Assembly: GCA_030149205.1 (NCBI GenBank)
Contig: JASBSB010000004.1
Location: 30,001-62,000 of the forward strand
Source: Candidatus Heimdallarchaeota archaeon
GTDB taxonomy: Archaea > Asgardarchaeota > Heimdallarchaeia > Heimdallarchaeales > Kariarchaeaceae
Length of the DNA stretch: 32,000 nucleotides
Direction of reading: 5' to 3'
Shown: piece by piece, positions 930 to 27,370 of the stretch
Layout: every line of letters starts with the position of its first letter
Position numbering within the stretch: the stretch's first letter is position 1
Notes under the pieces: model-generated
Database searches by the model: none
Told to the model about the DNA's origin: nothing
The model's input: only the letters and a program-made list of their open reading frames with translations
Position numbers and translations under genes: made by a program

Positions 930-2102
930 TTAAACTTGGACATCTCCTGCAATCAGTCTGTAGACAATTACTAACAAATAGTGGTAATAAATCATTAAAG
1001 TGAAGTAACTAAATAGGTCCGGGATCAAACTTATTGTCATAAATGAGGTGACAAACCCAGAACCAACATCTGCAGATAAGCGTATAGCTATTGGTGTTAA
1101 ATACACGATAAGTGTTGTGATTATTCCAGGTAGTATCTTACTTGAAGCCCAACTGGGAAATAGATTAGAAATTGTACCCTCAGGATTTGCAAGGAAGGGA
1201 ATTAGATTCGACAGTAAATAGCCCCCTATTTTTGCTAAAGATGGTGCCATAGTTAATCCCAATATTCCAAATGAGCTCGCAAGTAAGAGCTGTAACAGAG
1301 CTAATGCGACAACACTTCCGCGGTGATAATATGCCATCCATCTTGCTTCCTCTGGTGATATTTGAATTATGTAAAATAAATTCAACAATGTCTGAGTGAC
1401 AATTGAGACAAGACCAATTCTCTTTGCCTCAAGTGAAATCGGGGTAAGACCATAACCTGATGGCTTTGATGGTGCAACTAGCATGGAAAAGGCTAAAAAT
1501 TCAATTACTAAGTTCAAGGCAAAGAATACAAAGGAATTAATCTGTGGATTTACACCTAATGTCTCTGGTAGCTCTATTCTAGGAAACAAATAAGGTGTAA
1601 GAATACGAAATTCTTCAACACCATCAAAGTTTAAAACCAAATCTAGAGGAGGGGTAATATCCATCTTGATAAAACGAGTTATTCCAGCAAATGTTATTAT
1701 ACCCCCATTACTTTGAGTTGCCACATTTATTGAATACTGAGCGCTGATGGTGTAAAATATGGTGTGTAACAGATTAATAAAAAAACTTTTGACATCTTCT
1801 ACAATTGGTAGGAGTATATTGTTGGCGATGAACTCTCCAGCCTCCTTTACCCCGTCGACGGTGACGCCGTCCTTGATGGTCTGTAGGGCTCTGACTGTGA
1901 AGGTGAAGAACTGGCTCAGCGCTTCCACCAGGGTCGCCCCAGGCTTGCCGATCAGCCCCATCACCCACAGGTTCTGCTGCCAGTTGTCATCCTCATCAAT
2001 ATGTTCAGCAACAAATGGGTGGGTTACCATAGAATTAATTACCACGTTAAATGATTCCTGATGGGTACAAGAATACACAAACCTATTATTCCTTAATATC
2101 AT
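930..2102 (-). CDS. Cassette ORF: leader + conserved anchor + variable hydrophobic C-terminal domain (putative polymorphic toxin CT)
   Basis: Contains VYSCTHQESF, WQQNLWVMGLIGKPGATLV and LQTIKDGVTVDGVKEAG, then several TM-like helices. Probable start is GTG at 2078. Confidence 0.75.
   Translation of the reverse strand: MILRNNRFVYSCTHQESFNVVINSMVTHPFVAEHIDEDDNWQQNLWVMGLIGKPGATLVEALSQFFTFTVRALQTIKDGVTVDGVKEAGEFIANNILLPIVEDVKSFFINLLHTIFYTISAQYSINVATQSNGGIITFAGITRFIKMDITPPLDLVLNFDGVEEFRILTPYLFPRIELPETLGVNPQINSFVFFALNLVIEFLAFSMLVAPSKPSGYGLTPISLEAKRIGLVSIVTQTLLNLFYIIQISPEEARWMAYYHRGSVVALALLQLLLASSFGILGLTMAPSLAKIGGYLLSNLIPFLANPEGTISNLFPSWASSKILPGIITTLIVYLTPIAIRLSADVGSGFVTSFMTISLIPDLFSYFTLMIYYHYLLVIVYRLIAGDVQV
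1806..1985 (-). repeat. GC-rich anchor repeat copy
   Basis: Matches the copies at 8711, 15661, 18677 and 26482. Carries the 6-nt-shorter T-VDG variant shared with 17588 and 24121. Confidence 0.9.
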
Positions 2103-2114
2103 TTAACTTTATCG
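2057..2114 (-). promoter_or_regulatory. Cassette head: BRE/TATA-like box + leader
   Basis: CGATAAAGTTAAAT, 24 nt from TTAA to GTG TAT TCT TGT ACC CAT CAG. Confidence 0.65.
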
Positions 2115-2214
2115 CACATCTGCGTTCCTATTGTATTATTCTGAGTTGTTTCATTGAAGCTTGTTTTGATCTATACCATAGTTATAGAGCACTTGGTGAG
2201 GTTTCTCCCTCAGG

Positions 2215-2925: not shown

Positions 2926-2930
2926 GTGTC

Positions 2931-3305
2931 TTACACCGCTGAGGAAAATCTTTTCAATAAGAATGTAACACCCAGAAATATAAAGGGTAATAAAATACCT
3001 GAAATAAAGCCTTTATCCCAAGTTCCTGTTTGGGCAACAGGATCTGTTTTTCCGAACCTATCCATGAGACCATAAGTTATAAGTTCAGAAATACTTATCA
3101 CTGTTATCCACGATTTCATTACTTGTGTAAGCTCTGCTTCCACAACATTATCGAAGAAATCATCAATTGCAGTTAGCACGAGAAGCCCCCTAGCAGTCAT
3201 CTTAACCAAGAGCGACTCCTTCTTCACTACATCAGTAACTGAATCTGCATCAGGAATCACCTCATTTCCTTTACCACCAAACAAAAACTGTTTTGCTTTG
3301 TACAC
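2931..3305 (-). CDS. N-terminally truncated toxin-CT tail (FGKxDP...FSSAV family)
   Basis: Aligns with the last ~120 aa of 4330..5457 and 25481..27325 (DDFFDNV, DRFGKTDP, FSSAV). Confidence 0.75.
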   Translation of the reverse strand: MYKAKQFLFGGKGNEVIPDADSVTDVVKKESLLVKMTARGLLVLTAIDDFFDNVVEAELTQVMKSWITVISISELITYGLMDRFGKTDPVAQTGTWDKGFISGILLPFIFLGVTFLLKRFSSAV

Positions 3306-3342
3306 CTATCTATGTTTAATTTGTATCTCTTAAGTTTTTTTC
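3300..3342 (-). promoter_or_regulatory. Cassette head (TATA-like box, no CxHQ)
   Basis: GAAAAAAACTTAAG, 24 nt to GTG TAC, which starts the 2931..3305 ORF. Confidence 0.55.
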
Positions 3343-3582
3343 ATGTTTTACTCTCAATTTGACTTATAAAGAAGATTTGAGACAGATTGCCATTTCGAAG
3401 AATCCCTAATTTTTTTTTAGGAGATTAATTGGATATAAATTATTTGAACTCATAAAGTTCACTTATAGGGAATCTTCCCTCCTCAGGTCAGCCTTAATTG
3501 TTAAAAATGAATCAAAATACTATCAATCTGACCCAAACTTTCTGTGTATGAAACCTTTTTGCTAAAGTTAATTTTGTTAGTG

Positions 3583-4326: not shown

Positions 4327-4329
4327 AAT

Positions 4330-5457
4330 CTACACCGCAGATGAAAATATTTTCAAAGTCCAAGTGACTAATAGAAGGACGGTTGGTAAAACAATAGGAG
4401 ATAAGAACTTTTTGTCCCCAAATCCTATTTTTGCCTGTGGGTCAGTTTTACCAAATTTATCCATCAATGCATAGGTTACTACTTCTGAAACACCAATAAC
4501 AGCCAACCATGAGTACATAATGGGTGTTAAGCTCGCATTTATCACATTGTCATAAAAATCATTCACTTGGGCTAAAAAGACAGCTAAAGTATATCCTACC
4601 TTTGCAGCTGGTGTATACTTCTGAGTTGATTGCTTTTCAATTACATCCCTTTCAATCTTTTGATTTTTGCCTTTAAAAATTGTTTTTAAGGACTTTCCTG
4701 TTTCATAAATTAGAAAAGATAATGGTAGTATAAACTTCAATGCTGAGAGCCAGGCTAATAAGAGTTTATCAAATTCATCCAAGTCAGATTTCGTCCAAGG
4801 ATTCAGGTTTCCAGGTGTGACTCGGTTCCTTTCTCGAATCATAATTAGAACACTAAAGAGCAAAACAATAAGACCAGAAACCCGTCCAATCACTGAGCCT
4901 ATCATCATGACCAAGGGCCCACCGGGCATCCAGCCAGTCTTCTGTGACAATGCTTGCAAGATGTATCCTGCGTTAAGAAGGTTTAACCCAATTCCCTGTG
5001 CCCACACAAGGCTGTCGATGCTGTCTGTAGCGGGAGAGGGCGTCTCAGCTCCGAGCACTATTTCAAGCAACACCTTGAGTAAATCCATCTCAATTGACTT
5101 TTGGCCAACACTCAGTCTTATAGTCGAGGTGCCCACGAGCAGCACATCAATGTTGACAGTGACTCCATCAATGTACGATGTCACACCGACACCCGTTTGA
5201 GTTGTGACCGTGTGATGCCCAATGGACAGTTCTTCAGGCATCTGAAATATAGCTGTGATCGTTTTTCGGATCATAGAAACCAGCGCTTCCATTATTGGTT
5301 TGATCACACTGTTCACAAGAAAATCACTAATTACCTTGACCCTAGGGACGTAAACACCTTCCCTGAATACCTCTAGATTAATAAAAGAGTAGCTGTAGTC
5401 ACTTTTACTTGTAAATGACTTCTGATGGAGGCAAGGATACACATATCTGATATACAT
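4330..5457 (-). CDS. Cassette ORF: leader + toxin-CT of the FGKxDP family
   Basis: YVYPCLHQKSF leader. Clear paralog of the C-terminal ~340 aa of 25481..27325 (DSLVWAQGIGL, RERNR, NPWTKxDLDEFDKL, DKFGKxDPQA). Probable start is GTG at 5442. Confidence 0.8.
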   Translation of the reverse strand: MYIRYVYPCLHQKSFTSKSDYSYSFINLEVFREGVYVPRVKVISDFLVNSVIKPIMEALVSMIRKTITAIFQMPEELSIGHHTVTTQTGVGVTSYIDGVTVNIDVLLVGTSTIRLSVGQKSIEMDLLKVLLEIVLGAETPSPATDSIDSLVWAQGIGLNLLNAGYILQALSQKTGWMPGGPLVMMIGSVIGRVSGLIVLLFSVLIMIRERNRVTPGNLNPWTKSDLDEFDKLLLAWLSALKFILPLSFLIYETGKSLKTIFKGKNQKIERDVIEKQSTQKYTPAAKVGYTLAVFLAQVNDFYDNVINASLTPIMYSWLAVIGVSEVVTYALMDKFGKTDPQAKIGFGDKKFLSPIVLPTVLLLVTWTLKIFSSAV

Positions 5458-5477
5458 TTAAGTCATTTAAGTTTATT
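5421..5477 (-). promoter_or_regulatory. Cassette head: BRE/TATA-like box + leader
   Basis: CAATAAACTTAAAT, 24 nt to GTG TAT CCT TGC CTC CAT CAG. Confidence 0.65.
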
Positions 5478-5833
5478 GTACATGCTTACATTGTCGTTTC
5501 ACCCAGATTTAAACGATTTACCTTTATAACAAATATCAAATCCTTTTGATTTATCGAGAAGTCCAGACTCAACGGAAGAAATAACTAAAGATTTCTGACA
5601 ATTAAAATAGATCAATATAAATTTCCTGAATTAAATTTGTTATTCAATTTATAACACCGCTTTTCTATTTTTTACACTGATAATTGTCCGCAAAAGTGTT
5701 AAATAATAGTATTTTGCAAAAATCCTTATTTGTTCTTTTGTTTGTTCTTCTGTATCTCTGCCTTTACAATTTTTGCATATTCAGGAGATGATAGCAAACC
5801 AAACAAAAAAATAAAAATTATTGCATTCCCTAA

Positions 5834-7716: not shown

Positions 7717-9036
7717 TTACCTCGTCATTATTGAGAAGCTCAGAAACCTTAAAAATAAATCAATTGTGTTTATCAAAAGATTGAGCTTTGTATCTGGAAT
7801 GAGTGCATCCAAATTTGAATACTTTTTTGCTGCTTCCTTGAGCTTTTCTTCTGTACTTATGGTGAATCTCTCTGTTTTTGGAGTTTTTTCTCCAGTATTG
7901 ATTATATTTATAAAGGTTAGTACTACTTCTTTCATGGATCCGATATAAGTTAAATCACCACTCATTAATAAATTCTCTGCTGTCCCAACCCTAATACCTA
8001 TCAAATGAGCAATAAACAAGACTGGATCCCCAATTATCAAATCTCTGTCTGCGATTAGTTTGTACAGGAATGAAAACACCTTTGATTGAAATATTTCTTA
8101 AAATATCGGAAATAAGATAAGAGATATTACCTTGGTTGATTTGCTTTTGTCTGAGAGAAGCATTCCTCTATAATAAAACAGGTTGATCACAAACATTGTA
8201 AAATATACCCTTGCCAGGAACTGGTTGATAAACAGGAAGGTCATAGAGTTAAGGCTCGATTTCAGGAGTAGAGCGGTTGCCAATGCAGCAAACAGGTTTG
8301 AAACTGAAAGAGCAATCTGTATCCCTGTAGCCTTCGGCTTGTCTGTGCTGAGCAGTGGGTAGATCAACCAAAAGCTCACCATGTTCAGAGCCTCAATTAT
8401 AAGAACTGAAAAGATGGTGAATCCAGCTGTCCGATAATCAATTAAAAGCGTCTCAATTGATACAGCAACCTCAGAAAGCAGTTTGTTGAAGTTGATGACA
8501 AAAGAGTCAATCTGAAATTTAACATTGTCACCTGTCACAAGCATGGCGAAGCCTAATTTTGTACCTGCGATTGATACTGTGGGAACTGCCCCTGAAGACC
8601 TTGTGACGTCAGGGAAAACGGCACTTAATAGTGAGAACAGACCATCTGTCAGGGTGTTAGTAAAGACCCCCAATACCTGAAGTATGACCTTAAAGACCTC
8701 TGCCATAATATAACTACCGGCCGCCTTGGTCCCGTCGACGAAGCTGGTGACGCCGTCCTTGATGGTCTGCAGGGCTGTGGTACTCATTGTCCAAAGCTTG
8801 CTGACAAAGTCCACCAGGGTCGCCCCAGGCTTGCCAATGATGCTCATCACCCACCGGTTCTGCTGCCAGCTGCCAGCAACATCAACGCACATCGTGATTA
8901 ATCCATCATAGACAAAGTCAGCAAAGATCAGAGAAACAAAATTTGTTGGGTTCAACAAGTCTGCAATACTGTGGTTAGGCAGGATGAGTAAGGTCTCATA
9001 AGAGGTCTGGTGCATACAGGGTACTGGTCTGTTCAT
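7717..9036 (-). pseudogene. Cassette toxin-CT ORF interrupted by one in-frame TAA
   Basis: ORFs 8098..9036 and 7717..8079 share a frame. The TAA at 8098-8100 is followed by open codons EIFQSK leading into the second ORF. Contains MNRPVPCMHQ and the full anchor. Confidence 0.7.
8711..8925 (-). repeat. GC-rich anchor repeat copy
   Basis: Near-identical to 26482..26695 over the TMSTTALQTIKDGVTSFVDG segment. Confidence 0.9.
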
Positions 9037-9084
9037 AAGTAAAAGTACAAGACCATTAAAGCTTCCCTTTATATAAATTTATCC
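9007..9084 (-). promoter_or_regulatory. Cassette head, long variant
   Basis: GGATAAATTTATATA, 22 nt, TTGTAC, 8 nt, ATG-x5-CMHQ. Same layout at 15958 and 18950. Confidence 0.65.
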
Positions 9085-9347
9085 TACAGAAAGTGATCGG
9101 TAGAACAGAAGCTTGATCAAGTATATGTCCTGATGAAAAGAGAGATACAAAAATCTTTGACTATACAATGGAGTTGTTCCTAGCCTATAAGGATTGTAAG
9201 TAGTCACTTTGGAAGCTTAATAACGATATAAATCCTGTAGAAGTGAGAATTTTTGGTTAAAATAACTTCAGCCAAATACAATGTGAACTTATTCATTTAT
9301 TGGTCTATTCAGGATCAAATTCTAATCACGTTCTACTTAAAAAAAAT

Positions 9348-10205: not shown

Positions 10206-10636
10206 TGATGTTTCGCCACCAGATCTGCATAGACCACACTAAGTCTCAGGTGATAGATTATGAACTTACAGATGCGAAAAATGCTTACTGGAATAGCAAA
10301 ATTTACTGTAATTTCATAAACAAATTGTTGTGAAATCTTCTTTAGCAGGACTTCAAACTCTTTAGTTGTACTCATAAACTCAATGAAATAAAAGCTTTGA
10401 AATGAAAAAATTGTTATTTTAATTAAATTATAGAAACAGACCATTACCTGCTCTAAAATGGGTTTTAGAAGTTTATTCACTATATAATCCCCGACTCCCC
10501 TCACCTCGTTGACAGTAACGCAGCCCCTGATGGTCTGTTGGTTAATAGACCTGACAATGAAGTCGCTGTGTGTTCCAATTCCAAAGGTTTCCTGATGAAG
10601 GCAAGGGTACACATACCTGATATACATTAAAACCAT
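10202..10636 (-). CDS. Shortened cassette ORF (leader + degenerate anchor + CT end)
   Basis: YVYPCLHQETF and QTIRGCVTVNEVRGVGDY, ending IIYHLRLSVVY. Probable start is GTG at 10612. Confidence 0.65.
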   Translation of the reverse strand: MVLMYIRYVYPCLHQETFGIGTHSDFIVRSINQQTIRGCVTVNEVRGVGDYIVNKLLKPILEQVMVCFYNLIKITIFSFQSFYFIEFMSTTKEFEVLLKKISQQFVYEITVNFAIPVSIFRICKFIIYHLRLSVVYADLVAKHQ

Positions 10637-10650
10637 TTAAGTTTTTCTCA
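10591..10650 (-). promoter_or_regulatory. Cassette head: BRE/TATA-like box + leader
   Basis: GAGAAAAACTTAAAT, 24 nt to GTG TAC CCT TGC CTT CAT CAG. Near-identical to 24250..24308. Confidence 0.65.
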
Positions 10651-10670
10651 CATTTAAGATGGGTTCACCC

Positions 10671-11241: not shown

Positions 11242-11505
11242 CTATTTCACCCTATTTTGTGCATCAGCCCAGAGGTATGTGTTAAGGAAGTGGTACCCAG
11301 TCAAAGAGATACCATACAGACACTTTATTGGTCCCATTCCATATGCAGATGGTTTCTCCTCTATATGTTCCTTTCCTACCTCAATCAGTGATTTTATTAA
11401 TTTAACTGGACTTATAGAACCACCCAGCTTTGTCAACAAGCTGGGGAAGAGTGTAACCGCAGCAAAACTATGAAGGAACACATATCCTTTATTACACCAT
11501 ATCAT
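11242..11505 (-). CDS. Short cassette ORF (degenerate leader + toxin-CT tail)
   Basis: GYVFLHSF resembles RYVYPCLHQESF. Ends LTGYHFL. Probable start is GTG at 11481. Confidence 0.5.
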   Translation of the reverse strand: MIWCNKGYVFLHSFAAVTLFPSLLTKLGGSISPVKLIKSLIEVGKEHIEEKPSAYGMGPIKCLYGISLTGYHFLNTYLWADAQNRVK

Positions 11506-11515
11506 TTAAATCTAT
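11469..11515 (-). promoter_or_regulatory. Degenerate cassette head
   Basis: CAATAGATTTAAAT, 24 nt to GTG TTC CTT CAT. Confidence 0.55.
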
Positions 11516-11580
11516 TGTGCATAAAAATTCAGCTCGATAACTTTCAACAGGTAAATAAACTTATCAGAGAGTATACCAAG

Positions 11581-12396: not shown

Positions 12397-12718
12397 TCAC
12401 CACCTGTTAGTAATGGATTTAAACACAAATATCTGGAGTAGGTAAAAAATTCCCAAGAAGACTGAAAGCATTTGTATTGCTCTAATGAACCCTTCATTTG
12501 TTGGATCAGTTCCTATCAATACTCGAGTTGTGAGTCCACTTACTCCCATTGCAAAGAGGCTTAGTATCATTGGTACGGTAAGACCTGTATTGAAAATGTC
12601 TGATATGATACTTAGACCTGAAAGTGAGGCTGTTTTCTGTTTCTATTGTTAAAATTGGTTGATGGACACAGCTATGCATAGAACTATTAACCAACGTTGC
12701 CATATATAGTTTTCCCAT
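12397..12718 (-). pseudogene. Cassette leader with out-of-frame toxin-CT tail
   Basis: Leader MHSCVHQ (ATG at 12679). A shifted frame 12642..12397 reads KQKTASLSGLSIISDIFNTGLTVPMILSLFAMGVSGLTTRVLIGTDPTNEGFIRAIQMLSVFLGIFYLLQIFVFKSITNRW. Confidence 0.5.
12659..12716 (-). promoter_or_regulatory. Cassette head with ATG at the position where other copies have GTG
   Basis: GGGAAAACTATATAT, about 25 nt to ATG CAT AGC TGT GTC CAT CAA. Confidence 0.6.
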
Positions 12719-12845
12719 AACCCTTTAGGGTACTGTTAAAACCATAGAGATCGAATACTTCCACAGTGCACAATTTGTTCGAATTAGATGTGACCTCTTC
12801 ATGCTAGGTAGAGGGGGACTGTAAGACTCCTGCTATTAAACTAAC

Positions 12846-14585: not shown

Positions 14586-15987
14586 GAACTCTAAATCCTA
14601 AGGCATAATTAACTAAGCCAAAGATTATATGGTAGTAAGCATAAAGCATAATAGATTGACCGTAGGCCATAAATCTTGAGGCTTGATCAGCTTTCGCTCT
14701 AGAATCCTTTACTTTTGGAAATGCAAACCTGAATGGTAAGTATCCTGCAATTAAACCCAAACCTGCTCCAATGAGCAACCCAACGAAGTTGTTATCAGAA
14801 AGTGCAGAAAAGTCTAGGTTATAGATCATATTATTTACCTCTTCCCCAACCCTAAAAACAAGACTTATAGATGAAGCCCTTTGTGCTACTAAATTTAATA
14901 TCTTCCACATTAATCCATCTTGTTTTAGAAATGAAACGATTGATTTTGCCAGCTTTAACTTTGAATTTTTATCCATATTTTTGGCTAAGTTTTCAAAAAT
15001 TGTTTTACCAGATCTAATTTGTGTGTTAAGTTTTCCCAATCTTCCATTTCCTGAGTTATATTTAATTATTCCATCATCTATAAACTCACTGCGCTTAGTG
15101 TGTATTTGTTTTAACAGACTTAACCCCATTATTATATGAAATACGGTATTTATGCCAGTAACTTGCTGAAACCTCTTTTTATCATCCCAAAATGTAATCA
15201 AGGGGGCTATATTTGCAATAAGGTTTACGAGTGTTGCAGCCAACACGGCGAAATTAAGAGTCCCTACTGTTTCAGGGGTTGGTGGGAAAGGCTTTGCAAA
15301 AATCTGAATTGCTAAGTGACCGATCAAATCTACAAGGTGTAATCCCAATGCAGTAGATTGTGGGGTGGATAACCCCCCTAATGTTTCAAATTTAAACCCT
15401 GATAAAAAGACCGGATCTAGCACACTAAATTTAAAATTTTTTAAATTATCAGAAGAAATAATCAGGTAAACCCTATTTACATCAAATTGTACTTCTAAAC
15501 CTAACAGAATCGAACTTCCCTCTTTGAGTTTATCTCCAGAAACTGTATCATAACTCAATTGTGGTATCAATGTTGACATTGTAAAGAAGAATGTTTTGAT
15601 TATCATTTTTAATAAAATTTGAATTACAGCATTAATTACTAATTTTAATGTATCAACTATGTATTGTCCAGCCGCCTTGATCCCGTCGACGAAGCTGGTG
15701 ACGTCGTTTTTGATGGTCGTTAAATCATCTTGTGTCACGCTGAACACCCCAAAGAAAAAGTCCACCAGGACCCAGCCGGGGTGCCCAATCAGCCCCATCA
15801 CCCACAGGTTCTGCTGCCAGCTGCCAGCAACATCAACGCACATCGTGAGTAATCTGTCATAGACAAAGTCAGCAAACACCTGAGAAATAAAATTTGCTGG
15901 GTTCAACAAGTGTGCAATACTGTGCTTAGGCAGGATGAGTAAGGTCTCATAAGAGGTCTGGTGCATACAGGTTGCTGATCTATTCAT
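14578..15987 (-). CDS. Cassette ORF: leader + anchor + full-length variable hydrophobic CT
   Basis: 469 aa. MNRSATCMHQ leader and VDVAGSWQQNLW...VTSFVDGIKAAG anchor, several TM helices and a basic helical insert. Confidence 0.8.
   Translation of the reverse strand: MNRSATCMHQTSYETLLILPKHSIAHLLNPANFISQVFADFVYDRLLTMCVDVAGSWQQNLWVMGLIGHPGWVLVDFFFGVFSVTQDDLTTIKNDVTSFVDGIKAAGQYIVDTLKLVINAVIQILLKMIIKTFFFTMSTLIPQLSYDTVSGDKLKEGSSILLGLEVQFDVNRVYLIISSDNLKNFKFSVLDPVFLSGFKFETLGGLSTPQSTALGLHLVDLIGHLAIQIFAKPFPPTPETVGTLNFAVLAATLVNLIANIAPLITFWDDKKRFQQVTGINTVFHIIMGLSLLKQIHTKRSEFIDDGIIKYNSGNGRLGKLNTQIRSGKTIFENLAKNMDKNSKLKLAKSIVSFLKQDGLMWKILNLVAQRASSISLVFRVGEEVNNMIYNLDFSALSDNNFVGLLIGAGLGLIAGYLPFRFAFPKVKDSRAKADQASRFMAYGQSIMLYAYYHIIFGLVNYALGFRVRV
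15661..15876 (-). repeat. GC-rich anchor repeat copy
   Basis: Encodes VFADFVYD..VDVAGSWQQNLWVMGLIGHPGWVLVD..TIKNDVTSFVDGIKAAG. Confidence 0.9.
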
Positions 15988-16035
15988 AAGGAAAAGTACA
16001 AAACCATTAAGGCTTCCCTTTATTTAAATTTATCC
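15958..16035 (-). promoter_or_regulatory. Cassette head, long variant
   Basis: GGATAAATTTAAATA. Near-identical to 9007..9084. Confidence 0.65.
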
Positions 16036-16239
16036 TACAGAAAGTGATCGGTAGAACAGAACATTCTTTGTGGAGAGATTTCCACAGAATTCCTCTACAA
16101 TCAACATCCCTCGTCACCCCCTTAAGCTCCACCGTGCACGCCAGCACTCCGCGTGTTCACTCTCCTCCCCACTGCTTAGCTTTTCTATCTGTCTGTAGTA
16201 TCTTTTGTTTATGAGCTGCTTCAGATAATTCAGTACAAG

Positions 16240-17261: not shown

Positions 17262-17765
17262 TTACAAAAATAATGAGATGTAGTAATACCCAAATTTTAT
17301 TTTCTCTATAGCTGATTCCTTGATATAATATTGCTGTTTCTTGGTATTTATATCTTGATAGGCTTTATTTTGTTCATTGACTAGATCTACTGCATTTTTA
17401 TATTCCACATTTCTATAAGCTAATCCATCTTTGCCCAAATGACTAAACCGATATTCCTTCACCCTTTTATTAATTTCATTAAGGCCTTTTTCCATCTTAG
17501 ATATTTGGTTTTGGTCGTTTTGAAGCATCAGTTTAGGAAGGCGAAGTGCGAAAAAGTTCACCAGTATAGATTTTATACCTCTGGCAATTGGCAGGAGTAT
17601 ATTGTTTGTGGTGAACTCCCCGACAGCCTTTATCCCGACGACGGTGACGCCGTCCTTGATGGTCTGCTGGTTGATAGACCTGACAATGAAGTCGCTGGGT
17701 ATTCCAATTTCAAAGGATTCCTGATGAAGGCAAGCATACACATATCTGATATACATTAAAACCAT
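17262..17765 (-). CDS. Shortened cassette ORF (leader + partial anchor + hydrophilic tail)
   Basis: YVYACLHQESF and QTIKDGVTVVGIKAVGEF..NNILLPI. Probable start is GTG at 17741. Confidence 0.6.
   Translation of the reverse strand: MVLMYIRYVYACLHQESFEIGIPSDFIVRSINQQTIKDGVTVVGIKAVGEFTTNNILLPIARGIKSILVNFFALRLPKLMLQNDQNQISKMEKGLNEINKRVKEYRFSHLGKDGLAYRNVEYKNAVDLVNEQNKAYQDINTKKQQYYIKESAIEKIKFGYYYISLFL
17588..17668 (-). repeat. Short anchor repeat copy
   Basis: Matches 1806..1885 including NNILLPI. Confidence 0.85.
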
Positions 17766-17777
17766 TTAAGTTTATCG
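17720..17777 (-). promoter_or_regulatory. Cassette head: BRE/TATA-like box + leader
   Basis: CGATAAACTTAAAT, 24 nt to GTG TAT GCT TGC CTT CAT CAG. Confidence 0.65.
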
Positions 17778-17903
17778 CACAAAAATCATGTACGTAATCT
17801 TGCCCTCTCATGAAAATTAATGATGGACCCCTTAGTTTACCATATCTTTGCTCCTTGGATTCTGTTTAATCTTCAATCAGTTTCACGGAATAGGTTAACA
17901 CAT

Positions 17904-18671: not shown

Positions 18672-18979
18672 ATTCTAACTCCGTCGACGAAGCTGGTGAC
18701 GCCCCTTTTGATCTCTGTGAGTGCCTTGTCTGTCAAACTCCACAGTTGGTTCACCGCATCCACCAGGGTCCAGGTGGGATGCCCGATCAGCCCCATCACA
18801 GTTTTCCACAGGTTCTGCTGCCAGCTACCTGTCACATCAACGCACATTATAATCAACCTGCTAATTGTGTGACTATCAAAGACCTGTAAAAGTGTAGATT
18901 TCATCATGTCTTCACCAATGTAGTTAGAGGATGAAAGCCTCAGATGAGGGTGATGTTGACAACTAGTTATTTCGTCCAT
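18668..18979 (-). CDS. Cassette ORF with leader + anchor but no CT domain
   Basis: MDEITSCQHH leader. Ends GVTSFVDGVRI-stop, with an ATGA overlap into 17904..18671. Confidence 0.65.
   Translation of the reverse strand: MDEITSCQHHPHLRLSSSNYIGEDMMKSTLLQVFDSHTISRLIIMCVDVTGSWQQNLWKTVMGLIGHPTWTLVDAVNQLWSLTDKALTEIKRGVTSFVDGVRI
18677..18847 (-). repeat. GC-rich anchor repeat copy
   Basis: VDVTGSWQQNLWKTVMGLIGHPTWTLVD..IKRGVTSFVDG. Confidence 0.9.
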
Positions 18980-19027
18980 AGGTAATGGTACAAGAAAACT
19001 AAGATTTACAGCTTAATAAATTTATCC
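18950..19027 (-). promoter_or_regulatory. Cassette head, long variant
   Basis: GGATAAATTTATTAA, 22 nt, TTGTAC, 8 nt, ATG-x5-CQHH. Confidence 0.6.
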
Positions 19028-19420
19028 TACCAAAGGTAGCAGCTGGATTGGGTTGTTGATACAATGTTTCAGAGAAAACTCCTTGAGGAGGATTCTTCAC
19101 TAAAAAATAATTCTGTGGTTAAGGAGGTCCTCAATTATATGAATAATAGAATTACTATCCGGGGTCGACTCCATTTACCAATATCTGCTAACGTTATCAT
19201 AAAATTTTGATGAGAGAGCTATATCAAAGAATATTGTAAAACCTTAAGCTCTTCTCTAGTTGTATATTTTATCTATATATATTATAAATTATCAACATTA
19301 CGAATTGACACTTGCTCATAGATTAGATTCATCCTTATAATTTGAATTATACTCGTTAGCTTTTGCTTGGGTAAAAGAATTAAATACGCAGGAGCTAACC
19401 TTTGTATTTATACCTCAATT

Positions 19421-21259: not shown

Positions 21260-21517
21260 TCACAACTGTAGCACCTGTGTTGTAAGGGTGAGGAAAATCA
21301 TTTCCGGTATTTTCACAATAATGGTATGAACTCCTTCCCCTATGGGTCTGATGATATTGTTGGAATTGAACTCACCAGCGTATTTCACCCGCTCGTTAAA
21401 GTTGGTGATACAGTCCTTGATGGTCTGCCGAAATACATCTGTCATTGAAAAACGAGTGAATGATCCAGCATCAAATGAATCCTGATGGAAACAGATGTAC
21501 ACATATCTATCATCCAT
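21260..21517 (-). CDS. Truncated cassette ORF (leader + degenerate anchor)
   Basis: YVYICFHQDSF and QTIKDCITNFNERVKYAGEF..NNIIRPI. Probable start is GTG at 21502. Confidence 0.55.
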   Translation of the reverse strand: MDDRYVYICFHQDSFDAGSFTRFSMTDVFRQTIKDCITNFNERVKYAGEFNSNNIIRPIGEGVHTIIVKIPEMIFLTLTTQVLQL

Positions 21518-21538
21518 TAATCTTATTTAAGTTTATTT
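21481..21538 (-). promoter_or_regulatory. Cassette head: BRE/TATA-like box + leader
   Basis: AAATAAACTTAAAT, 24 nt to GTG TAC ATC TGT TTC CAT CAG. Confidence 0.65.
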
Positions 21539-22029
21539 CCCAAATTTTAGTTATTAGAAATTCTAAATCTTTGTGTGGTTTTATTTTTTGTTTAAGTTTG
21601 AGTACTTCATAACCTTTTGCCATTGCAGGGAATAAAAAGCTCAACCAATGACCAGAGATGCAAACACCAAGAAATCCAGCAATTACCAGATCATTTCGGG
21701 GAGGAAAGCCAAACCTAATCTACCACTGCTGCTATACCCGCTTTCAACAAATTCTGTAGTGTTTGCGGTGTTGTTTTTATGATAGGAAATGACTATTTGT
21801 TAGTGGGTCTGGGAACTGTTTTTTATATTAGTTACCTTGTCACAGGGATCTGTGATGATCTTTCAGGAAATTTCCGCATCCATTGACCTTCACTACATTT
21901 AACTACAATGTTTCATCAAGTTTTTTCTCTTTTAGTTAGGAAATGCAGTTTAGCTTGATTAATATAATTTTATTCGGATCACTAACCTAGTAAAGCCTAA
22001 AAAGACAACAATGTGTTGTAAGCTAGTCT

Positions 22030-22532: not shown

Positions 22533-23090
22533 CTAGTAAAATACAAGTACCAGGAGTATCCTATATGCTTTTGGTTCCCAACTCATCCGAGCATTTAACA
22601 TTAACAACGTTGCAATAGCTCCCATAGATATAGTCCAAGTACCTCCAAGCAGTAATGTATGTTCAAATACAACTTGGTTTATGTCTAAGGTTTCATAAAT
22701 TAAATCTGTGGATGAAATCAATGGACTTTTAATTATAAATACATTATTATTTACGTTAAATTGTATGCCTTTGATTACTCCTTGTACATCAATGGTTAAA
22801 ACTAGAGTATTTTGCTTTTTAACACAAATAAAATTGTTCAAAAGTTCAACAACATTTCCATCTAACATTGAAATTGTTTTGAAAATAGCAAAAAGCATTG
22901 TTTTTACAGTTATTGCTATAAATTGATGAATTACCTCAAGGACTGCATTCATAATATAACTACCGGCTGCTTTCACCCCATCGACGAAGCTGGTGACGCT
23001 GCTCCTAATACTCTGAAAGTTACTATACATGGTAATTGAGTGCTTTTCAGTTTCGAAATCAAATGACAGCTGATGGAGACAGCAGTACAC
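22533..23090 (-). CDS. Truncated cassette ORF (leader + partial anchor + start of CT)
   Basis: VYCCLHQLSF and SVTSFVDGVKAAGSYIM. The start is taken as GTG 23090; the track's extension to 23354 overlaps 23146..23913. Confidence 0.6.
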   Translation of the reverse strand: MYCCLHQLSFDFETEKHSITMYSNFQSIRSSVTSFVDGVKAAGSYIMNAVLEVIHQFIAITVKTMLFAIFKTISMLDGNVVELLNNFICVKKQNTLVLTIDVQGVIKGIQFNVNNNVFIIKSPLISSTDLIYETLDINQVVFEHTLLLGGTWTISMGAIATLLMLNARMSWEPKAYRILLVLVFY

Positions 23091-23125
23091 AGAAGTAATA
23101 TCCAATGATTTCATATAAAGTTTCC
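23069..23125 (-). promoter_or_regulatory. Cassette head: BRE/TATA-like box + leader
   Basis: AGGAAACTTTATAT, 24 nt from TTAT to GTG TAC TGC TGT CTC CAT CAG. Confidence 0.6.
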
Positions 23126-23145
23126 TCATTCCAGTTGAAGTATGA

Positions 23146-23923: not shown

Positions 23924-24295
23924 TTAAAATGATTGGTTGTCTATCATCGCATACATCACTGCTAAAACAACATGGTAAAATGTGTAAAACATCATGTATG
24001 TATTAGACTGAATCAAGATATTCCCTGAGGAATCCACAGTCACACTTACTGAAATTATTGTTTCAACAATCTGTAACAGGCCAAGTATTGCTGAGCGATA
24101 CACATTCATCATTTCTTCTGCAATAGGCAGGGGTGTATTGTTGGCTATGACCTCCCCAGCAGCCTTGATCCCGTCGACGGTGACGTCTCCCCTGATGGTC
24201 TGCAGGGCTGTGAAAGTGAAGCTACTGTGTGTTCCAGTTTCATAGGATTCCTGATGAAGGCAAGGGTACACATACCTGATATACATTAAAACCAT
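23924..24295 (-). CDS. Internally deleted cassette ORF
   Basis: YVYPCLHQESY and FTALQTIRGDVTVDGIKAAGE..NN, ending MFYTFYHVVLAVMYAM. Probable start is GTG at 24271. Confidence 0.65.
   Translation of the reverse strand: MVLMYIRYVYPCLHQESYETGTHSSFTFTALQTIRGDVTVDGIKAAGEVIANNTPLPIAEEMMNVYRSAILGLLQIVETIISVSVTVDSSGNILIQSNTYMMFYTFYHVVLAVMYAMIDNQSF
24121..24222 (-). repeat. Short anchor repeat copy
   Basis: Matches the 1806..1910 copy, T-VDG variant. Confidence 0.85.
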
Positions 24296-24308
24296 TTAAG
24301 TTTTTCTC
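24250..24308 (-). promoter_or_regulatory. Cassette head: BRE/TATA-like box + leader
   Basis: Near-identical to 10591..10650. Confidence 0.65.
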
Positions 24309-24356
24309 ACATTTAAGATAGGTTCACCCCTCTCCCATCATCACTGGAGAGTCTTT

Positions 24357-24395: not shown

Positions 24396-24708
24396 TTAGG
24401 TGAATATTTTTATAGGTGTTTCTCATGGAGCTTCTTAGCATTGGCCCTTGAAAATTGCTGCCTTCCCCTTTGATGATCTATTGTGTGATTGTTTTAGAGA
24501 CGAGTGGAGGAGATCCTTTAAATGGGGATCCTTTTTATGTGTATAACGGGACACAATTCCATGACTCCTTTCTTCTAAATTTATCATATAGGATTAATTA
24601 TCCTATCCAGAATATCTATGGTAAGTATTCCTTTTCAGAATCTATCAAATTTGAAAGTCAATAGGAAGATTAATCACTAAAAACAGTCTCAAACGAATCT
24701 TTTTATAG

Positions 24709-25488
24709 TTACACAGCTGAGACAACTTTTATTTTGCAAAATGAACAAATCTTGACTGTGAGCCAGTCAAGATACGCAGCAAAAACCAATATTCCAGCCT
24801 TAGAAACTACAAATACTACTAAAACACCTGATCCTCTGTCCGAGATGAAATTTTGTCCCAGAAATGCCAGTGCTATTAAGTTTTCAACAAAAATTAATGC
24901 TATAACACCATAAGCGATTAAGTCCCAACTTCCCAAATCAGATAACAGTTTATCCTGAAAAATGTTAACAAAAAATAGGAGAATAAACAGAAGCAATGCA
25001 GTTATCTTTACTGTATCCCATTCATTGTCTAGGAAACTCAAAACAAAAAGAGAAATTAAGATAATCAATCGAGCAAAAAACAACCTATATTTTCTTACCT
25101 CAAATTTTTTCGATTCAGAGTTAAACACCTTTCTAAGCACAGGATCATCAGAAAAAATATCTGAGGCAATTATGGCATAGATAGCTAGTATCATCAAAAA
25201 TAAATTTCTACTAATTATTACACCCAAAAACCCTAGAATTGAATAGCTGTAATATACCAAATAGTCTTTATCTCTTTCAGTAATTTTATGGAGAAGTATT
25301 CGACTAATTGTTTTAGAAATTATTACTAAGATCATCATTCCTCCTAGGATACCAAACCCCTCCCAGCTTAGGAAAGAGACCCTGTTTTGGAGTTGAATGT
25401 AAAGCATTATTGGAAACAGCAACATAATTACTTGTCGCAGAAAAAAATTCGTTAGACGCAAATTTTCTGGTTCCATAATATCACACAA
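24709..25488 (-). CDS. Multi-TM membrane protein, putative immunity family I
   Basis: 259 aa, paralog of 17904, 3583 and 2215. Likely start is ATG 25476, just after the toxin-like ORF stop. Confidence 0.8.
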   Translation of the reverse strand: MCDIMEPENLRLTNFFLRQVIMLLFPIMLYIQLQNRVSFLSWEGFGILGGMMILVIISKTISRILLHKITERDKDYLVYYSYSILGFLGVIISRNLFLMILAIYAIIASDIFSDDPVLRKVFNSESKKFEVRKYRLFFARLIILISLFVLSFLDNEWDTVKITALLLFILLFFVNIFQDKLLSDLGSWDLIAYGVIALIFVENLIALAFLGQNFISDRGSGVLVVFVVSKAGILVFAAYLDWLTVKICSFCKIKVVSAV

Positions 25489-27325
25489 CTGATGAAAACA
25501 GTTTTAGCACCTCTTTGAATATAAAAAACAAAAAGGGTAAAACCACAAGAGAGTACCCTTTTTTGCTAAAGAAGGTTGCTGCTGCCTGAGGGTCTCCTTT
25601 TCCAAATTTATCCAGCACTGCATAGCTGACGATCTCTCCACTTGCTACGCCTGCGAGCCAGAAGTACATCGTTGGTGTCAGGGGATTATCAATCACATTG
25701 TCCTTAAAATCGTTGTAGCTCGAGATGAAAATATATAAGAGTTTAGCTAAACTCGTCTTAGCTGTTAATTTGTTCTCTTTTGCGAACTCTTCTAAGACCT
25801 TTTTGAATCCATTTTTACCCTCCTTGACTATCGTTTTGACTGCCTTTCCAGCATTATACACTGTATATGAGAATGGTAAAACAAAGATCAGCGCAGAAAG
25901 CCATCCAACCATAAGTTTGTCGAATTCATCAAGGTCTTCCTTTGTCCATGGGTTAAGGTTTACGTCAGCAAAGAGATACCTGTTCCTCTCTCTGAATATA
26001 TTTATGAAAGTCAGTAATAGTACGGCTTGTGATGCAATAAAGAGCCCTAGGGACGTAAGGGTGGCACCCAAGGGGCCCAACACAGGTACAGCCCCATTGG
26101 TCTTTTGTGATAACGCACTGGCAATATAGGCTGCATTAAGCAGAGAGAGCCCTATCCCCTGTGCCCAAACAAGGGAATCAGCACTTGACCCAGCGGGAGA
26201 AAGGGTCTCACTGCCGATGATCAGCTCTAAAATGGTCTGGAATAGATCAACTGTGGTTGTTTTGCCCCCAACCACCATTTTCATTGTTGATACACCAACA
26301 AGCTCTATGGTTATATCTAACACCTTGTTATCGATGTATGAGGTGAGACGGAGGCCATTTGGGATTAGCACGGTGTTATATCCGGGAGAGGTCTCACCAA
26401 GTGTTAAAAACAACGCATTAACGACATTTCGAAAGATAGAGATCAGACCCTCCATTATAGGCTTAATCACCTTGTTGACGAAGAACTCTCCGGCGAATTT
26501 CACCCCATCGACGAAGCTGGTGACGCCGTCCTTGATGGTCTGCAGGGCTGTGGTACTCATTGTCCAAAGCTCACTGACAAAGTCCACCAGGGTCGCCCCA
26601 GGCTTCCCAATGATGCTCATCACAGTGTTCCACAGGTTCTGCTGCCAGCTCCCCGCAACATCGATGTAGGTGTCATAGATGTGGTCAGCAAAGACCAGGA
26701 TGGCAACCTTGGCGACAGCCACATAGTCCAGGCCTGTATTGGGGTCATACCTCAGATTGTTTGGATGGTCAAGGTTCAGCTCAGTGATCAAGGCGTCGTC
26801 CTTCAGGATCACGTTTGCCAGCCGGTTCTGCTGGGGCTCCTCCTTGTACCAGTTGATGATGCGCTCCACTGAGCCAAAGCCATAGTCGTTGATCTTGCCC
26901 CAGACGAAGTCAAAGAGCTTGTACTCCCTGTAGATGACCACATTTCCAATCTTGATGTCATAGCCAAGCCAGCTGTTCAGGATGCTCTTGGTGTTGGCCC
27001 TCAGGCTGTTGAAGTCCTGCACCACCTTCTCCAGCAGCAGAGAGACATCAAAGACCCGGTCCTTGGTGGGTTGTGTCTCACTGGCAGTCTTCATGGAGGC
27101 ACGCGCAGTTGGTGGCACCTGTGCCGCCTGCTTCTCATTGTCCGGGCTCCAGCTGAAGCCTGTCCCCTTGATCAGGGCTGTCAGCACCGAGTGGTTGGCA
27201 GCCAACTGGTGACGTGGGGCAAACTCAAGGGTTTCCTGATGTTTTAGGATTTGAGCTCTGTATCGATTTAACCCGAGCTCAAAGGGTGTAGAATTGCCGC
27301 ATTGAACTCTGTATCTTTGATGCAT
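25481..27325 (-). CDS. Longest cassette ORF: extended GC-rich conserved region + anchor + FGKxDP-family CT (first module of the array)
   Basis: 614 aa. Region ~26480-27240 is visibly GC-rich and contains the full anchor. The C-terminal part is paralogous to 4330..5457 and 2931..3305. No signal peptide seen. Confidence 0.8.
   Translation of the reverse strand: MHQRYRVQCGNSTPFELGLNRYRAQILKHQETLEFAPRHQLAANHSVLTALIKGTGFSWSPDNEKQAAQVPPTARASMKTASETQPTKDRVFDVSLLLEKVVQDFNSLRANTKSILNSWLGYDIKIGNVVIYREYKLFDFVWGKINDYGFGSVERIINWYKEEPQQNRLANVILKDDALITELNLDHPNNLRYDPNTGLDYVAVAKVAILVFADHIYDTYIDVAGSWQQNLWNTVMSIIGKPGATLVDFVSELWTMSTTALQTIKDGVTSFVDGVKFAGEFFVNKVIKPIMEGLISIFRNVVNALFLTLGETSPGYNTVLIPNGLRLTSYIDNKVLDITIELVGVSTMKMVVGGKTTTVDLFQTILELIIGSETLSPAGSSADSLVWAQGIGLSLLNAAYIASALSQKTNGAVPVLGPLGATLTSLGLFIASQAVLLLTFINIFRERNRYLFADVNLNPWTKEDLDEFDKLMVGWLSALIFVLPFSYTVYNAGKAVKTIVKEGKNGFKKVLEEFAKENKLTAKTSLAKLLYIFISSYNDFKDNVIDNPLTPTMYFWLAGVASGEIVSYAVLDKFGKGDPQAAATFFSKKGYSLVVLPFLFFIFKEVLKLFSSVV
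26482..26695 (-). repeat. GC-rich anchor repeat, reference copy
   Basis: VFADHIYDTYIDVAGSWQQNLWNTVMSIIGKPGATLVDFVSELWTMSTTALQTIKDGVTSFVDGVKFAGEFF. Confidence 0.9.
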
Positions 27326-27370
27326 GGACAGATACTATAAAATAAAGACTGGAGCTATATAAGTTTATCC
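27317..27370 (-). promoter_or_regulatory. Cassette head (divergent variant)
   Basis: GGATAAACTTATATA upstream of TAT CTG TCC ATG CAT CAA. A second HQETLEF occurs at ~27225-27245. Confidence 0.55.

What the first reader, a model, noticed from the sequence alone, without database searches (positions are those of the whole stretch)
2057..27370. Every cassette carries its own BRE-TATA box placed exactly 24 nt from a GTG/ATG leader start
Seen: (A/G)ATAAA/GAAAA + CTTAAAT-like boxes lie exactly 24 nt upstream of GTG in nine copies (GTG at 2078, 3305, 5442, 10612, 11481, 17741, 21502, 23090, 24271) and about 25 nt upstream of ATG at 12679, although the spacer sequence varies. A long variant (22 nt to TTGTAC, then ATG) occurs at 9007, 15958 and 18950. 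Established: the archaeal TSS lies about 25 nt from the TATA box and leaderless mRNAs are common. Inference: a portable promoter-leader module is grafted onto each orphan, so cassettes are independently expressed. The module could also act as the insertion site for cassette capture.
Basis: partly seen in the sequence, partly recalled or inferred. Interest (0 to 1): 0.85.

Follow-up and report, generated by a model that had tools for sequence, protein, structure and literature searches.

The report
Shared leaderless promoter heads on cassettes
In this Asgard (Heimdall-group) archaeon, almost every unit of a species-private array of toxin/immunity-like membrane-protein genes starts with the same ~70-110 bp "head" (an ordinary archaeal promoter, a start codon placed where transcription should begin, and a short conserved peptide). 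The stored gene copies therefore look individually switched on, unlike the silent spare copies of comparable bacterial loci, but no RNA data could be obtained.

Summary
All ten short heads lie on the minus strand at the stated coordinates. Each has BRE/TATA (consensus CGATAAACTTAAATG), exactly 21 more bases, then GTG (once ATG). The window holds 11 matches against 0.76 expected by chance.

Across the genome, TATA-like words peak at the same distance (-28) from candidate ATG and GTG starts. Head genes lack a Shine-Dalgarno motif; most genes close downstream have one. This fits one transcription unit per head, with a leaderless first gene.

GTG is the likely start. It never varies synonymously, while the neighbouring Tyr, Cys, His and Gln codons do, and the 24 bases upstream show no protein-level conservation.

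The bodies are not unrelated orphans. They are about 20 paralogues of one family, found only in two arrays on this contig.

The same head is nevertheless joined to the body at six or more different points, including directly at GTG. The only outside relative has an orphan with no head. "Portable promoter-leader module" therefore holds as a description, but how it arose is unknown. Nothing supports a capture site.

The scan noted similar shared promoters on archaeal cassettes in other genomes.

The parts
27323..27374 (-). Promoter of the first, longest family gene (614 aa, ATG 27325). BRE/TATA GGATAAACTTATATA at 27356-27370, predicted start of transcription about 27334, 9-nt leader.
24242..24311 (-). 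Short head, GTG at 24271 (VYPCLHQESY). A second CTTAAATG box lies 17 nt upstream.
23061..23130 (-). Short head, GTG at 23090 (VYCCLHQLSF), TATA variant CTTTATATG.
21473..21542 (-). Short head, GTG at 21502 (VYICFHQDSF). No ATG at -24 (ATA there).
18908..19031 (-). Long head. Degenerate box GGATAAATTTATTAA at 19013-19027, GTAC at 18991, ATG at 18979 (MDEITSCQHH...).
17712..17781 (-). Short head, GTG at 17741 (VYACLHQESF), consensus box CGATAAACTTAAATG.
15916..16039 (-). Long head. GGATAAATTTAAATA at 16021-16035, GTAC at 15999, ATG at 15987 (MNRSATCMHQTSYET...).
12650..12719 (-). Degenerate short head with ATG in place of GTG at 12679 (MHSCVHQ...). The ORF is only 57 aa.
11478..11521 (-). Promoter and GTG (11481) only, fused to the last 79 codons of a tip. 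An SD-led partner gene follows (10698-11240).
10583..10652 (-). Short head, GTG at 10612 (VYPCLHQETF). A second CTTAAATG box lies 17 nt upstream.
8965..9088 (-). Long head. GGATAAATTTATATA at 9070-9084, GTAC at 9048, ATG at 9036 (MNRPVPCMHQTSYET...).
5413..5482 (-). Short head, GTG at 5442 (VYPCLHQKSF), on an intact 370-aa gene. The in-frame ATG at -24 is followed by TAA.
3300..3345 (-). Promoter plus GTG TAC (3305) only, fused to the C-terminal 117 residues of a 5442-type tip. TAG lies directly before the GTG.
2049..2118 (-). Short head, GTG at 2078 (VYSCTHQESF), joined further upstream in the constant region (WQQNLW...) of an intact 382-aa gene.

Best explanation
Each head is the 5' control-and-start unit of one transcription unit in a species-private array of polymorphic, toxin/immunity-like membrane-protein genes.

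Its parts, numbered from the G of GTG as +1:
- a short conserved TGTG word at -40 to -37;
- an A-rich BRE (GATAAA) at -35 to -30;
- a TATA box (CTTAAATG) at -29 to -22;
- a 21-nt AT-rich spacer of invariant length;
- an initiator-like T|G step.

TBP, TFB and RNA polymerase should start transcription at or within a base or two of that GTG. The message would then be leaderless. GTG is read as the initiator and is followed by the conserved peptide M-Y-x-C-x-H-Q-x-S-F. The partner genes behind it are translated from Shine-Dalgarno sites on the same transcript.

The copies are homologous. The head was spread with the cassettes by duplication and recombination. It is kept by selection, possibly helped by gene conversion, while the flanks have diverged beyond recognition. 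The exact 24-nt spacing therefore reflects common descent plus the fixed geometry of the archaeal pre-initiation complex.

Because the head is one of only two nucleotide-level homology blocks shared by all cassettes, it probably also serves as a crossover point. That would explain why it now sits on bodies truncated at different places.

Shown here: sequence, spacing, genome-wide register, presence or absence of SD motifs, and codon-level selection. Inferred: the start of transcription, protein synthesis, any function of the peptide, and toxin/immunity roles.
For: (1) Repeat and spacing. About 22 heads, none outside the two arrays. No indel between -40 and +30 in 19 short-type heads (15 with the peptide, 4 with the promoter and GTG only).

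(2) Genome-wide register, arrays excluded.
- TTAAA upstream of the first ATG of long ORFs peaks at -28, exactly where it lies in the head.
- TATA-like hexamers at -29 to -27 precede 5.5% of candidate ATG and 4.6% of candidate GTG starts, against 1-2% at control offsets. TTG shows no excess.
- Those promoters show A at -35 to -32, some C at -36/-37 and T at -1, as the head does. This matches the published TATA/BRE/Inr T(A/G) scheme (PMC7289017).

(3) Unit architecture. In array 1 every GTG/ATG-start head gene except 3305 (box CTTAAGAG) has a TATA word at -28/-29 and no GGTG/GAGG/GGAG motif. The long heads and the first gene carry their box 9-12 nt further from the ATG. About two thirds of genes starting within 30 nt of the preceding stop have such a motif and no TATA at that distance. 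The 16S rRNA ends GGATCACCTCCT.

(4) GTG as the start.
- It is GTG in 14 of the 15 heads that carry the peptide and ATG in the other, and GTG again in the 4 promoter-only heads. GTA, GTC and GTT never occur.
- Neighbouring codons vary synonymously: Tyr TAC/TAT 8:5, Cys TGC/TGT 7:7, Gln CAG/CAA 12:3.
- Synonymous share of pairwise codon differences is 31% downstream and 11% upstream. The upstream value is close to the 6.5% seen in the wrong frames.
- Three heads have a stop between -24 and the GTG. Four deletion derivatives keep the promoter and GTG and little else.

(5) Selection.
- Promoter identity averages 64%, against 30-32% in the 40 nt further upstream and at +91 to +130.
- Pairs whose bodies are saturated at synonymous sites still align from -40 to about +30.
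- dN/dS is 0.23-0.74 for family genes, truncated ones included, and for partners. They have therefore been translated.
Against: An in-frame ATG sits at -24, inside TTAAATG, in 13 of 15 short heads. The frame from it is open in 16 of 19 heads, while the other two frames carry stops in 12 and 16 of 19. Gene callers in public data often start there.

G at -22 is conserved far beyond what the genome's TATA profile requires.

I know of no direct demonstration that GUG works at the 5' end of a leaderless message in Asgard archaea; only the genome-wide statistics here support it.

All copies are paralogues from one genome, so the counts are not independent. Gene conversion could mimic selection.
Confidence: 0.68

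Rival explanations
1. The TATA-like box is incidental. Translation starts at the in-frame ATG at -24 (or -15). The cassettes are read from transcripts that begin further upstream, for example read-through from the first gene's promoter. 'Exactly 24 nt' would then be eight conserved codons.
For: ATG at -24 in 13 of 15 short heads. Frame open in 16 of 19 heads, against frequent stops in the other two frames. G at -22 conserved beyond TATA needs. Public gene calls start there for several members. The whole 43-kb array is on one strand with short gaps.
Against: The eight upstream codons are not conserved as amino acids: 11% of differences are synonymous, against 6.5% in wrong frames. Upstream entropy shows no three-base periodicity. 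Three heads have a stop or no ATG there, and 3305 has TAG directly before GTG. No SD motif precedes the ATG. Most copies have no promoter-like box at the right distance upstream of it. The GTG codon never varies synonymously. The long heads and the first gene have no ATG at that place.
Confidence: 0.12
2. The head is first of all a recombination element, a dedicated site or homology block at which tips and partner genes are captured, swapped or deleted. Its promoter activity is secondary. This is the reader's 'capture site', an archaeal analogue of an integron attachment site with a built-in promoter.
For: Pairwise homology between cassettes starts abruptly at -39 to -42, even for pairs 84-92% identical downstream. 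At least four unrelated upstream contexts occur. The same head is joined to bodies at six or more points, three of them within 3-6 nt after GTG. Head subtype disagrees with join point. The outside relative's orphan has no head.
Against: Of the twenty proteins scanned (ten from the array, ten flanking or control genes), none hit a recombinase or integrase family. No recurrent inverted repeats or attC-like structures lie at cassette ends. Breakpoints at the edge of a conserved block are expected from ordinary unequal crossing-over. Codon-level selection on the peptide and the genome-typical promoter register point to expression as the conserved function.
Confidence: 0.12
3. The heads are relics. 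The array is a graveyard of recently duplicated, decaying gene fragments, and the heads look conserved only because of recent copying or gene conversion, not because they work.
For: Many head-led ORFs are short (57-167 aa) and look truncated. Several heads are identical or nearly so. The family is confined to one genome.
Against: dN/dS is 0.23-0.74, also for truncated members and partners. Heads stay 60-88% identical between cassettes whose bodies and upstream flanks are no longer alignable. Spacer length is invariant although the coding leader just behind it tolerates indels.
Confidence: 0.08

Closest known systems
Archaeal core promoter of leaderless mRNAs (BRE + TATA box + Inr; reviewed in PMC7289017)
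   Same: An A-rich BRE next to a 7-8 bp TATA box. Pyrimidine/purine T|G at the predicted start. The start codon sits where transcription should begin. The register matches this genome's own modal TATA-to-start distance.
   Different: The head is conserved well beyond the core elements: TGTG at -40, much of the spacer, and G at -22. It continues into a conserved peptide. It is a private repeat of one locus, and it uses GTG rather than ATG.
Orphan toxin/immunity modules of bacterial CDI and Rhs loci (Poole et al. 2011, PMC3150448)
   Same: A first long gene is followed on the same strand by many 5'-truncated copies. These share a constant stretch, have different C-terminal tips, and are each followed by their own small partner gene. 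A nucleotide-conserved constant block could allow tip swapping.
   Different: Bacterial orphans generally lack translation initiation signals and are co-transcribed with the main gene. Here each truncated copy has its own predicted promoter, start codon and leader peptide. The organism is an archaeon, no known toxin, trafficking or immunity domain is present, and toxicity is untested.
The 955-aa relative and its orphan on metagenome contigs L011/L024
   Same: 44-46% identity over about 255 residues of the constant region. It has a membrane-rich tip, a small membrane partner, and a downstream orphan 92% identical in DNA to the main gene over 302 nt.
   Different: The main gene has a Sec-type signal peptide and a 390-residue N-terminal domain that is absent from the window's genome. 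Its orphan starts 3 nt after the partner's stop, with no BRE/TATA head and no YxCxHQ peptide.
Integron cassette arrays, including archaeal integrons (Ghaly et al. 2022, PMC9668308; cited from an earlier scan note, not read here)
   Same: A one-strand array of many small accessory units with recurrent boundary sequences.
   Different: No integrase and no attC-like imperfect palindromes were found. The recurrent element is at the 5' end and is a promoter plus coding start, whereas integron cassettes are typically promoterless.

Membership tests
Archaeal BRE/TATA core promoter driving a leaderless mRNA | AT-rich 7-8 bp TATA box about 25-30 bp upstream of the transcription start | tested here: met
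   CTTAAATG at -29 to -22 from the GTG. Genome-wide, TATA words peak at the same offset (-28) from candidate starts.
Archaeal BRE/TATA core promoter driving a leaderless mRNA | A-rich BRE directly upstream of TATA | tested here: met
   GATAAA or GAAAAA at -35 to -30. The genome-wide profile is A-rich at -35 to -32 with C at -36/-37.
Archaeal BRE/TATA core promoter driving a leaderless mRNA | Initiator: pyrimidine at -1, purine at +1 | tested here: met
   T at -1 in 14 of 15 heads, G (once A) at +1. Genome-wide, T at -1 is 49-66% in TATA-bearing starts.
Archaeal BRE/TATA core promoter driving a leaderless mRNA | No Shine-Dalgarno motif before the first gene; distal genes SD-led | tested here: met
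   Head genes have none. About two thirds of genes starting within 30 nt of the preceding stop have GGTG, GAGG or GGAG at -14 to -4. The 16S tail is GGATCACCTCCT.
Archaeal BRE/TATA core promoter driving a leaderless mRNA | Mapped 5' triphosphate end at or within a few nt of the start codon; TBP/TFB binding | not testable with these tools
Polymorphic toxin/immunity locus with orphan cassettes (CDI/Rhs type) | Constant N-terminal part, variable C-terminal tips, each tip with its own adjacent small partner gene | tested here: met
   20-member family with a shared core and several tip types. Partner families co-vary with tips.
Polymorphic toxin/immunity locus with orphan cassettes (CDI/Rhs type) | Orphans lack their own initiation signals and depend on recombination into the main gene | tested here: not met
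   Every truncated copy has a BRE/TATA box and a start codon. Bacterial orphans lack these.
Polymorphic toxin/immunity locus with orphan cassettes (CDI/Rhs type) | Recognisable toxin, trafficking or immunity domains; demonstrated toxicity and protection | tested here: inconclusive
   No Pfam family for members or partners. No Atlas lead. AlphaFold model at pLDDT 49.6. Toxicity is not testable here.
Integron-like cassette array | Adjacent tyrosine recombinase and attC-type imperfect inverted repeats at cassette ends | tested here: not met
   No integrase among the twenty proteins scanned, ten from the array and ten flanking or control genes. Only 4 unrelated short inverted repeats in 27.5 kb.

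The most novel reading that the evidence does not exclude
The head is a dedicated 'activation adaptor': a roughly 100-bp unit holding a promoter, a leaderless start and an 18-24-residue leader peptide. An unknown recombination process at -40 and at the GTG/GTAC word repeatedly joins it to 5'-truncated tips, and even to lone partner genes. Every stored cassette of an archaeal conflict locus thereby becomes an autonomous, expressed gene. This would be a way of using spare cassettes that I did not find described for bacterial polymorphic toxin loci or integrons.
Probability: 0.15. Interest if true: 0.75.

Novelty: new variant of a known kind. Interest (0 to 1): 0.45.

Why it matters
Promoters and translation starts of Asgard archaea are hardly mapped. 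This locus offers about 22 natural variants of one promoter with a fixed TATA-to-start distance and a GTG start. It is a ready-made test set for leaderless initiation in the closest archaeal relatives of eukaryotes.

If the family is a conflict system, its spare cassettes would be individually expressed rather than silent. That changes what such arrays are for: a standing repertoire rather than a store. The promoter itself is ordinary, though. The family is private to one genome, and every functional statement is still in silico.

Tried and rejected
- Relatives of the head:
  - protein search in 46 genomes of the same order found none;
  - a head DNA pattern in the same genomes gave only a 21-codon chance ORF in two related genomes;
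  - exact-pattern scans of metagenome contigs and genome contigs found none;
  - a profile search of 1.84 billion representatives returned ten proteins whose lengths (and, for the two read, sequences) match the genome's own ORFs, plus three repetitive false hits;
- Function of the family: Pfam gave nothing and the ESM Atlas gave nothing above 0.75. The AlphaFold2 model has mean pLDDT 49.6 with residues 1-35 at about 30, so no fold search was run.
- Terminators: T5 or longer runs lie in 11 of 18 gaps before heads, which is not clearly above chance in a 35% GC genome.
- A palindrome in the spacer (ATATC-A-GATAT) and a TGTG...TGTG direct repeat flanking the promoter were considered. Both were dropped because they are not kept across copies.
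- Rfam and tRNA scans of the window were empty.
- One call was wasted on a too-short protein.

Full report
WHAT IS THERE

The window is contig C1:30001-62000 of a 3.3-Mb, 35% GC archaeal genome. Earlier scan notes place it in the Heimdall group of Asgard archaea; I did not test that placement. All coordinates in the finding are first bases of codons on the minus strand.

Read on that strand, each site shows the following: (T)GTG, CGATAAACTTAAATG, 21 nt, then GTG TAY nnn TGY nnn CAY CAR, which encodes V/M-Y-x-C-x-H-Q-x-S-F. All nine GTGs and the ATG at 12679 have exactly 24 nt between ...CTTAA and the start codon.

A relaxed pattern, AAAYTTAWATR-N21-RTG with up to 1 mismatch, gives 11 window matches, all on the minus strand. 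Chance expectation is 0.76.

The true layout is GGATAAATTTAWATA (degenerate in the third copy), 21 nt, GTAC, then ATG 12 nt later, with ATGs at 9036, 15987 and 18979. The first and longest gene of the array (614 aa, ATG 27325) has the same box at 27356-27370 and a 9-nt leader.

Genome-wide there are about 22 heads. All lie on C1 between 17 and 100 kb, in one minus-strand array (57.3 to 14 kb) and a smaller inverted plus-strand array (94 to 100.8 kb). The exact 15-mer occurs seven times there and nowhere else.

IS IT A PROMOTER AT LEADERLESS DISTANCE?

I excluded the arrays and examined the upstream regions of long ORFs across the genome.
- TTAAA peaks at offset -28 from the first ATG, the offset it has in the head.
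- TATA-like hexamers starting at -29 to -27 precede 5.5% of candidate ATG and 4.6% of candidate GTG starts. At four control offsets the figure is 1-2%, and TTG shows no excess.
- The profile of those promoters is A-rich at -35 to -32, has some C at -36/-37, and has T at -1 (49% before ATG, 66% before GTG). The head matches it position by position: C-36, GATAAA, CTTAAAT, T-1, G+1.
- This is the published archaeal scheme of TATA box, A-rich BRE and Inr T(A/G) (PMC7289017).

The head is therefore a typical promoter of this genome, with the start codon where a leaderless message would begin. The genome also appears to use GTG in that position elsewhere.

TRANSCRIPTION-UNIT ARCHITECTURE

A table of all array-1 genes shows a clean split.
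- Every GTG/ATG-start head gene except 3305 (box CTTAAGAG) has a TATA word at -28/-29 and no GGTG, GAGG or GGAG motif.
- The long heads and the first gene carry their box 9-12 nt further from the ATG.
- About two thirds of the genes that start within 30 nt of the preceding stop have such a motif 4-14 nt before their start, and no TATA at that distance.

The 16S rRNA ends GGATCACCTCCT. A leaderless first gene followed by SD-led distal genes is the textbook archaeal operon layout. Oligo-T runs in the gaps before heads are frequent, but not clearly more so than chance.

WHICH START CODON?

An in-frame ATG lies inside the TATA box at -24 in 13 of 15 short heads. The frame from it is open in 16 of 19 heads, and public gene calls often start there. 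Five observations argue against it as the start.
- The eight upstream codons are not conserved as amino acids. Only 11% of pairwise codon differences are synonymous, against 6.5% in the two wrong frames and 31% downstream.
- Upstream entropy has no three-base period.
- The GTG codon is GTG in 14 of the 15 heads that carry the peptide and ATG in the other, and GTG again in the 4 promoter-only heads. GTA, GTC and GTT never occur. The adjacent codons vary freely at the third base: TAC/TAT 8:5, TGC/TGT 7:7, CAG/CAA 12:3.
- Three heads carry a stop or lack the ATG, and 3305 has TAG directly before the GTG.
- The long heads and the first gene have no ATG at that place.

I put GTG as the start at about 0.8. 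G at -22 is conserved beyond what the TATA profile needs, and I cannot explain that.

IS IT A GRAFTED, PORTABLE MODULE?

The bodies are not unrelated orphans. All-against-all BLAST groups 20 ORFs into one family. The family has a conserved core (WQQNLW..IIGKPGATLVDF....QTIKDGVTVDGVKAAGEF), a beta-rich middle and membrane-helix-rich C-terminal tips of several types. Several families of partner genes follow the tips and co-vary with them. Intact genes beginning VYxCxHQ exist:
- in the window: 5442 (370 aa) and 2078 (382 aa);
- elsewhere on C1: 27748, 24561, 94800 and 98959.

Even so, the head behaves as a discrete unit.
- Pairwise blastn alignments begin abruptly at -39 to -42, even for pairs 84-92% identical downstream. 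They end at +21 to +31 when the bodies differ. At least four unrelated upstream contexts occur.
- Mean identity from -40 to -1 is 64%, against 30-32% in the 40 nt further upstream and at +91 to +130.
- The homologous leader (C-x-HQ-x-S-Y/F-E-T ... H-S) is joined to the body at six or more different points:
  - at a point matching residue ~391 of the 939-aa metagenome relative P0002 (in the 614-aa first gene);
  - at about residue 195 of the first gene (long heads);
  - at WQQNLW (2078; C1 17302);
  - at QTIKDG (typical short heads);
  - at about residue 495 (3305);
  - inside the last 79 codons of another tip (11481);
  - eight codons before a stop, ahead of a lone partner gene (C1 19715).
- The two WQQNLW-joined bodies carry promoters whose nearest relatives (88%) sit on short-type bodies.

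The only relative outside this genome is a 955-aa protein on metagenome contigs L011/L024. It has a Sec-type signal peptide, a small membrane partner and a tyrosine integrase nearby. Behind it lies a classical orphan that is 92% identical in DNA to the main gene over 302 nt. That orphan starts 3 nt after the partner's stop, with no TATA head and no YxCxHQ peptide.

'The same promoter-leader module on differently truncated copies' is thus a fair description, and the head looks like an innovation of this lineage. Nested deletions that keep the head, unequal crossing-over between heads, or true grafting would all give this picture, and I cannot tell them apart.

Long and short heads may be related by loss of 24 nt between two GTAC words. 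That loss would turn a 12-nt-leader ATG start into a leaderless GTG start. This is inference.

CAPTURE SITE?

I scanned twenty proteins: ten from the array (five or six family members, the rest neighbouring genes) and ten flanking or control genes. None hit a recombinase family. The 27.5 kb holds only four unrelated short inverted repeats, so there is nothing attC-like. The shared -40 breakpoint is what ordinary recombination within a conserved block would leave. This part of the reading has no positive support.

ARE THE CASSETTES ALIVE?

Nei-Gojobori dN/dS between paralogous pairs is 0.23-0.74.
- The 115-aa pair (24271 against C1 97781) gives 0.48.
- The 124-aa 3305 gene against the tip of 5442 gives 0.23.
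- The partner pairs give 0.29-0.50.

This fits translated genes rather than dead fragments. Some units, such as 12679 (57 aa), do look degenerate.

WHAT THE FAMILY IS

This remains unknown. There is no Pfam family, no Atlas lead, and only a low-confidence model whose first 35 residues are disordered.

The layout resembles bacterial CDI/Rhs loci: a first long gene, then truncated copies with different membrane-rich tips, each followed by a small membrane partner. In those loci, however, orphans generally lack initiation signals and are co-transcribed with the main gene (PMC3150448). Here each copy has its own predicted promoter and start.

The family and the head are absent from 46 genomes of the same order, from two public contig collections, and from 1.84 billion cluster representatives apart from the genome's own proteins.

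LIMITS

Everything rests on paralogues within one genome, so the counts are not independent events, and gene conversion could mimic purifying selection.

VERDICT

- The promoter and leaderless reading is well supported in silico.
- The 'portable module' reading is supported as a description but not as a mechanism.
- The 'capture site' reading is unsupported.
- The promoter is ordinary. The unusual point is that every spare cassette of a toxin/immunity-like array has one. I file it as a new variant of a known kind, of moderate interest.
- Earlier scan notes report similar shared promoters on archaeal cassettes in other genomes. I took those as leads only.

Noticed in passing
window 10651-10658 and 24310-24317 (minus strand): Heads 10612 and 24271 carry a second CTTAAATG box 17 nt upstream of the main one. 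By the same spacing rule it would start transcription near the in-frame ATG at -15, giving two possible leaderless starts 15 nt apart.
   Followed up: partly
window heads, position -22 (for example 10634, 17763): G at -22, which makes the ATG inside TTAAATG, is kept in 14 of 15 short heads. Only about 10% of this genome's TATA-bearing promoters have G there. Unexplained.
   Followed up: partly
window 9024-9048, 15975-15999 versus short heads: Long heads read GTAC at +1 and again 24 nt later (GTACCCTGT). Short heads read GTGTACCCTTGC at +1. Loss of the 24 nt between the two GTAC words would convert the long form into the short leaderless form, with the Tyr-Pro and Val-Pro codons read from the same bases in shifted frames.
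   Followed up: partly
L024:6324-10754 (same element as L011): The metagenome relative has a 955-aa main gene with a Sec signal peptide, an 85-aa membrane partner and a 431-aa orphan sharing 302 nt at 92% identity with the main gene. A tyrosine integrase lies nearby, and there are no head modules.
   Followed up: partly
G000:C1:94069-101336 versus window 1-28366: A second, smaller array lies inverted about 36 kb away. Both arrays abut copies of the same nuclease-like gene (window 27464-28366; fragment at C1 101058-101336), so the housekeeping segment between them sits between inverted repeats.
   Followed up: no
window 26000-28000: GC content jumps to about 50% (genome 35%) over the 5' part of the 614-aa first gene and the divergent nuclease-like gene. 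Earlier scan notes also flagged this.
   Followed up: no
window 6554-7711: One partner-position gene has a weak leucine-rich-repeat match (LRR_8, E = 8e-4, below Pfam's cut-off).
   Followed up: no
window 17782-17786 and C1 heads 94800, 41481: A T4-T5 run sits directly upstream of the TGTG word in several heads (for example GATTTTTGTGCGATAAAC). It could be a terminator abutting the promoter, but it is not present in all copies.
   Followed up: partly
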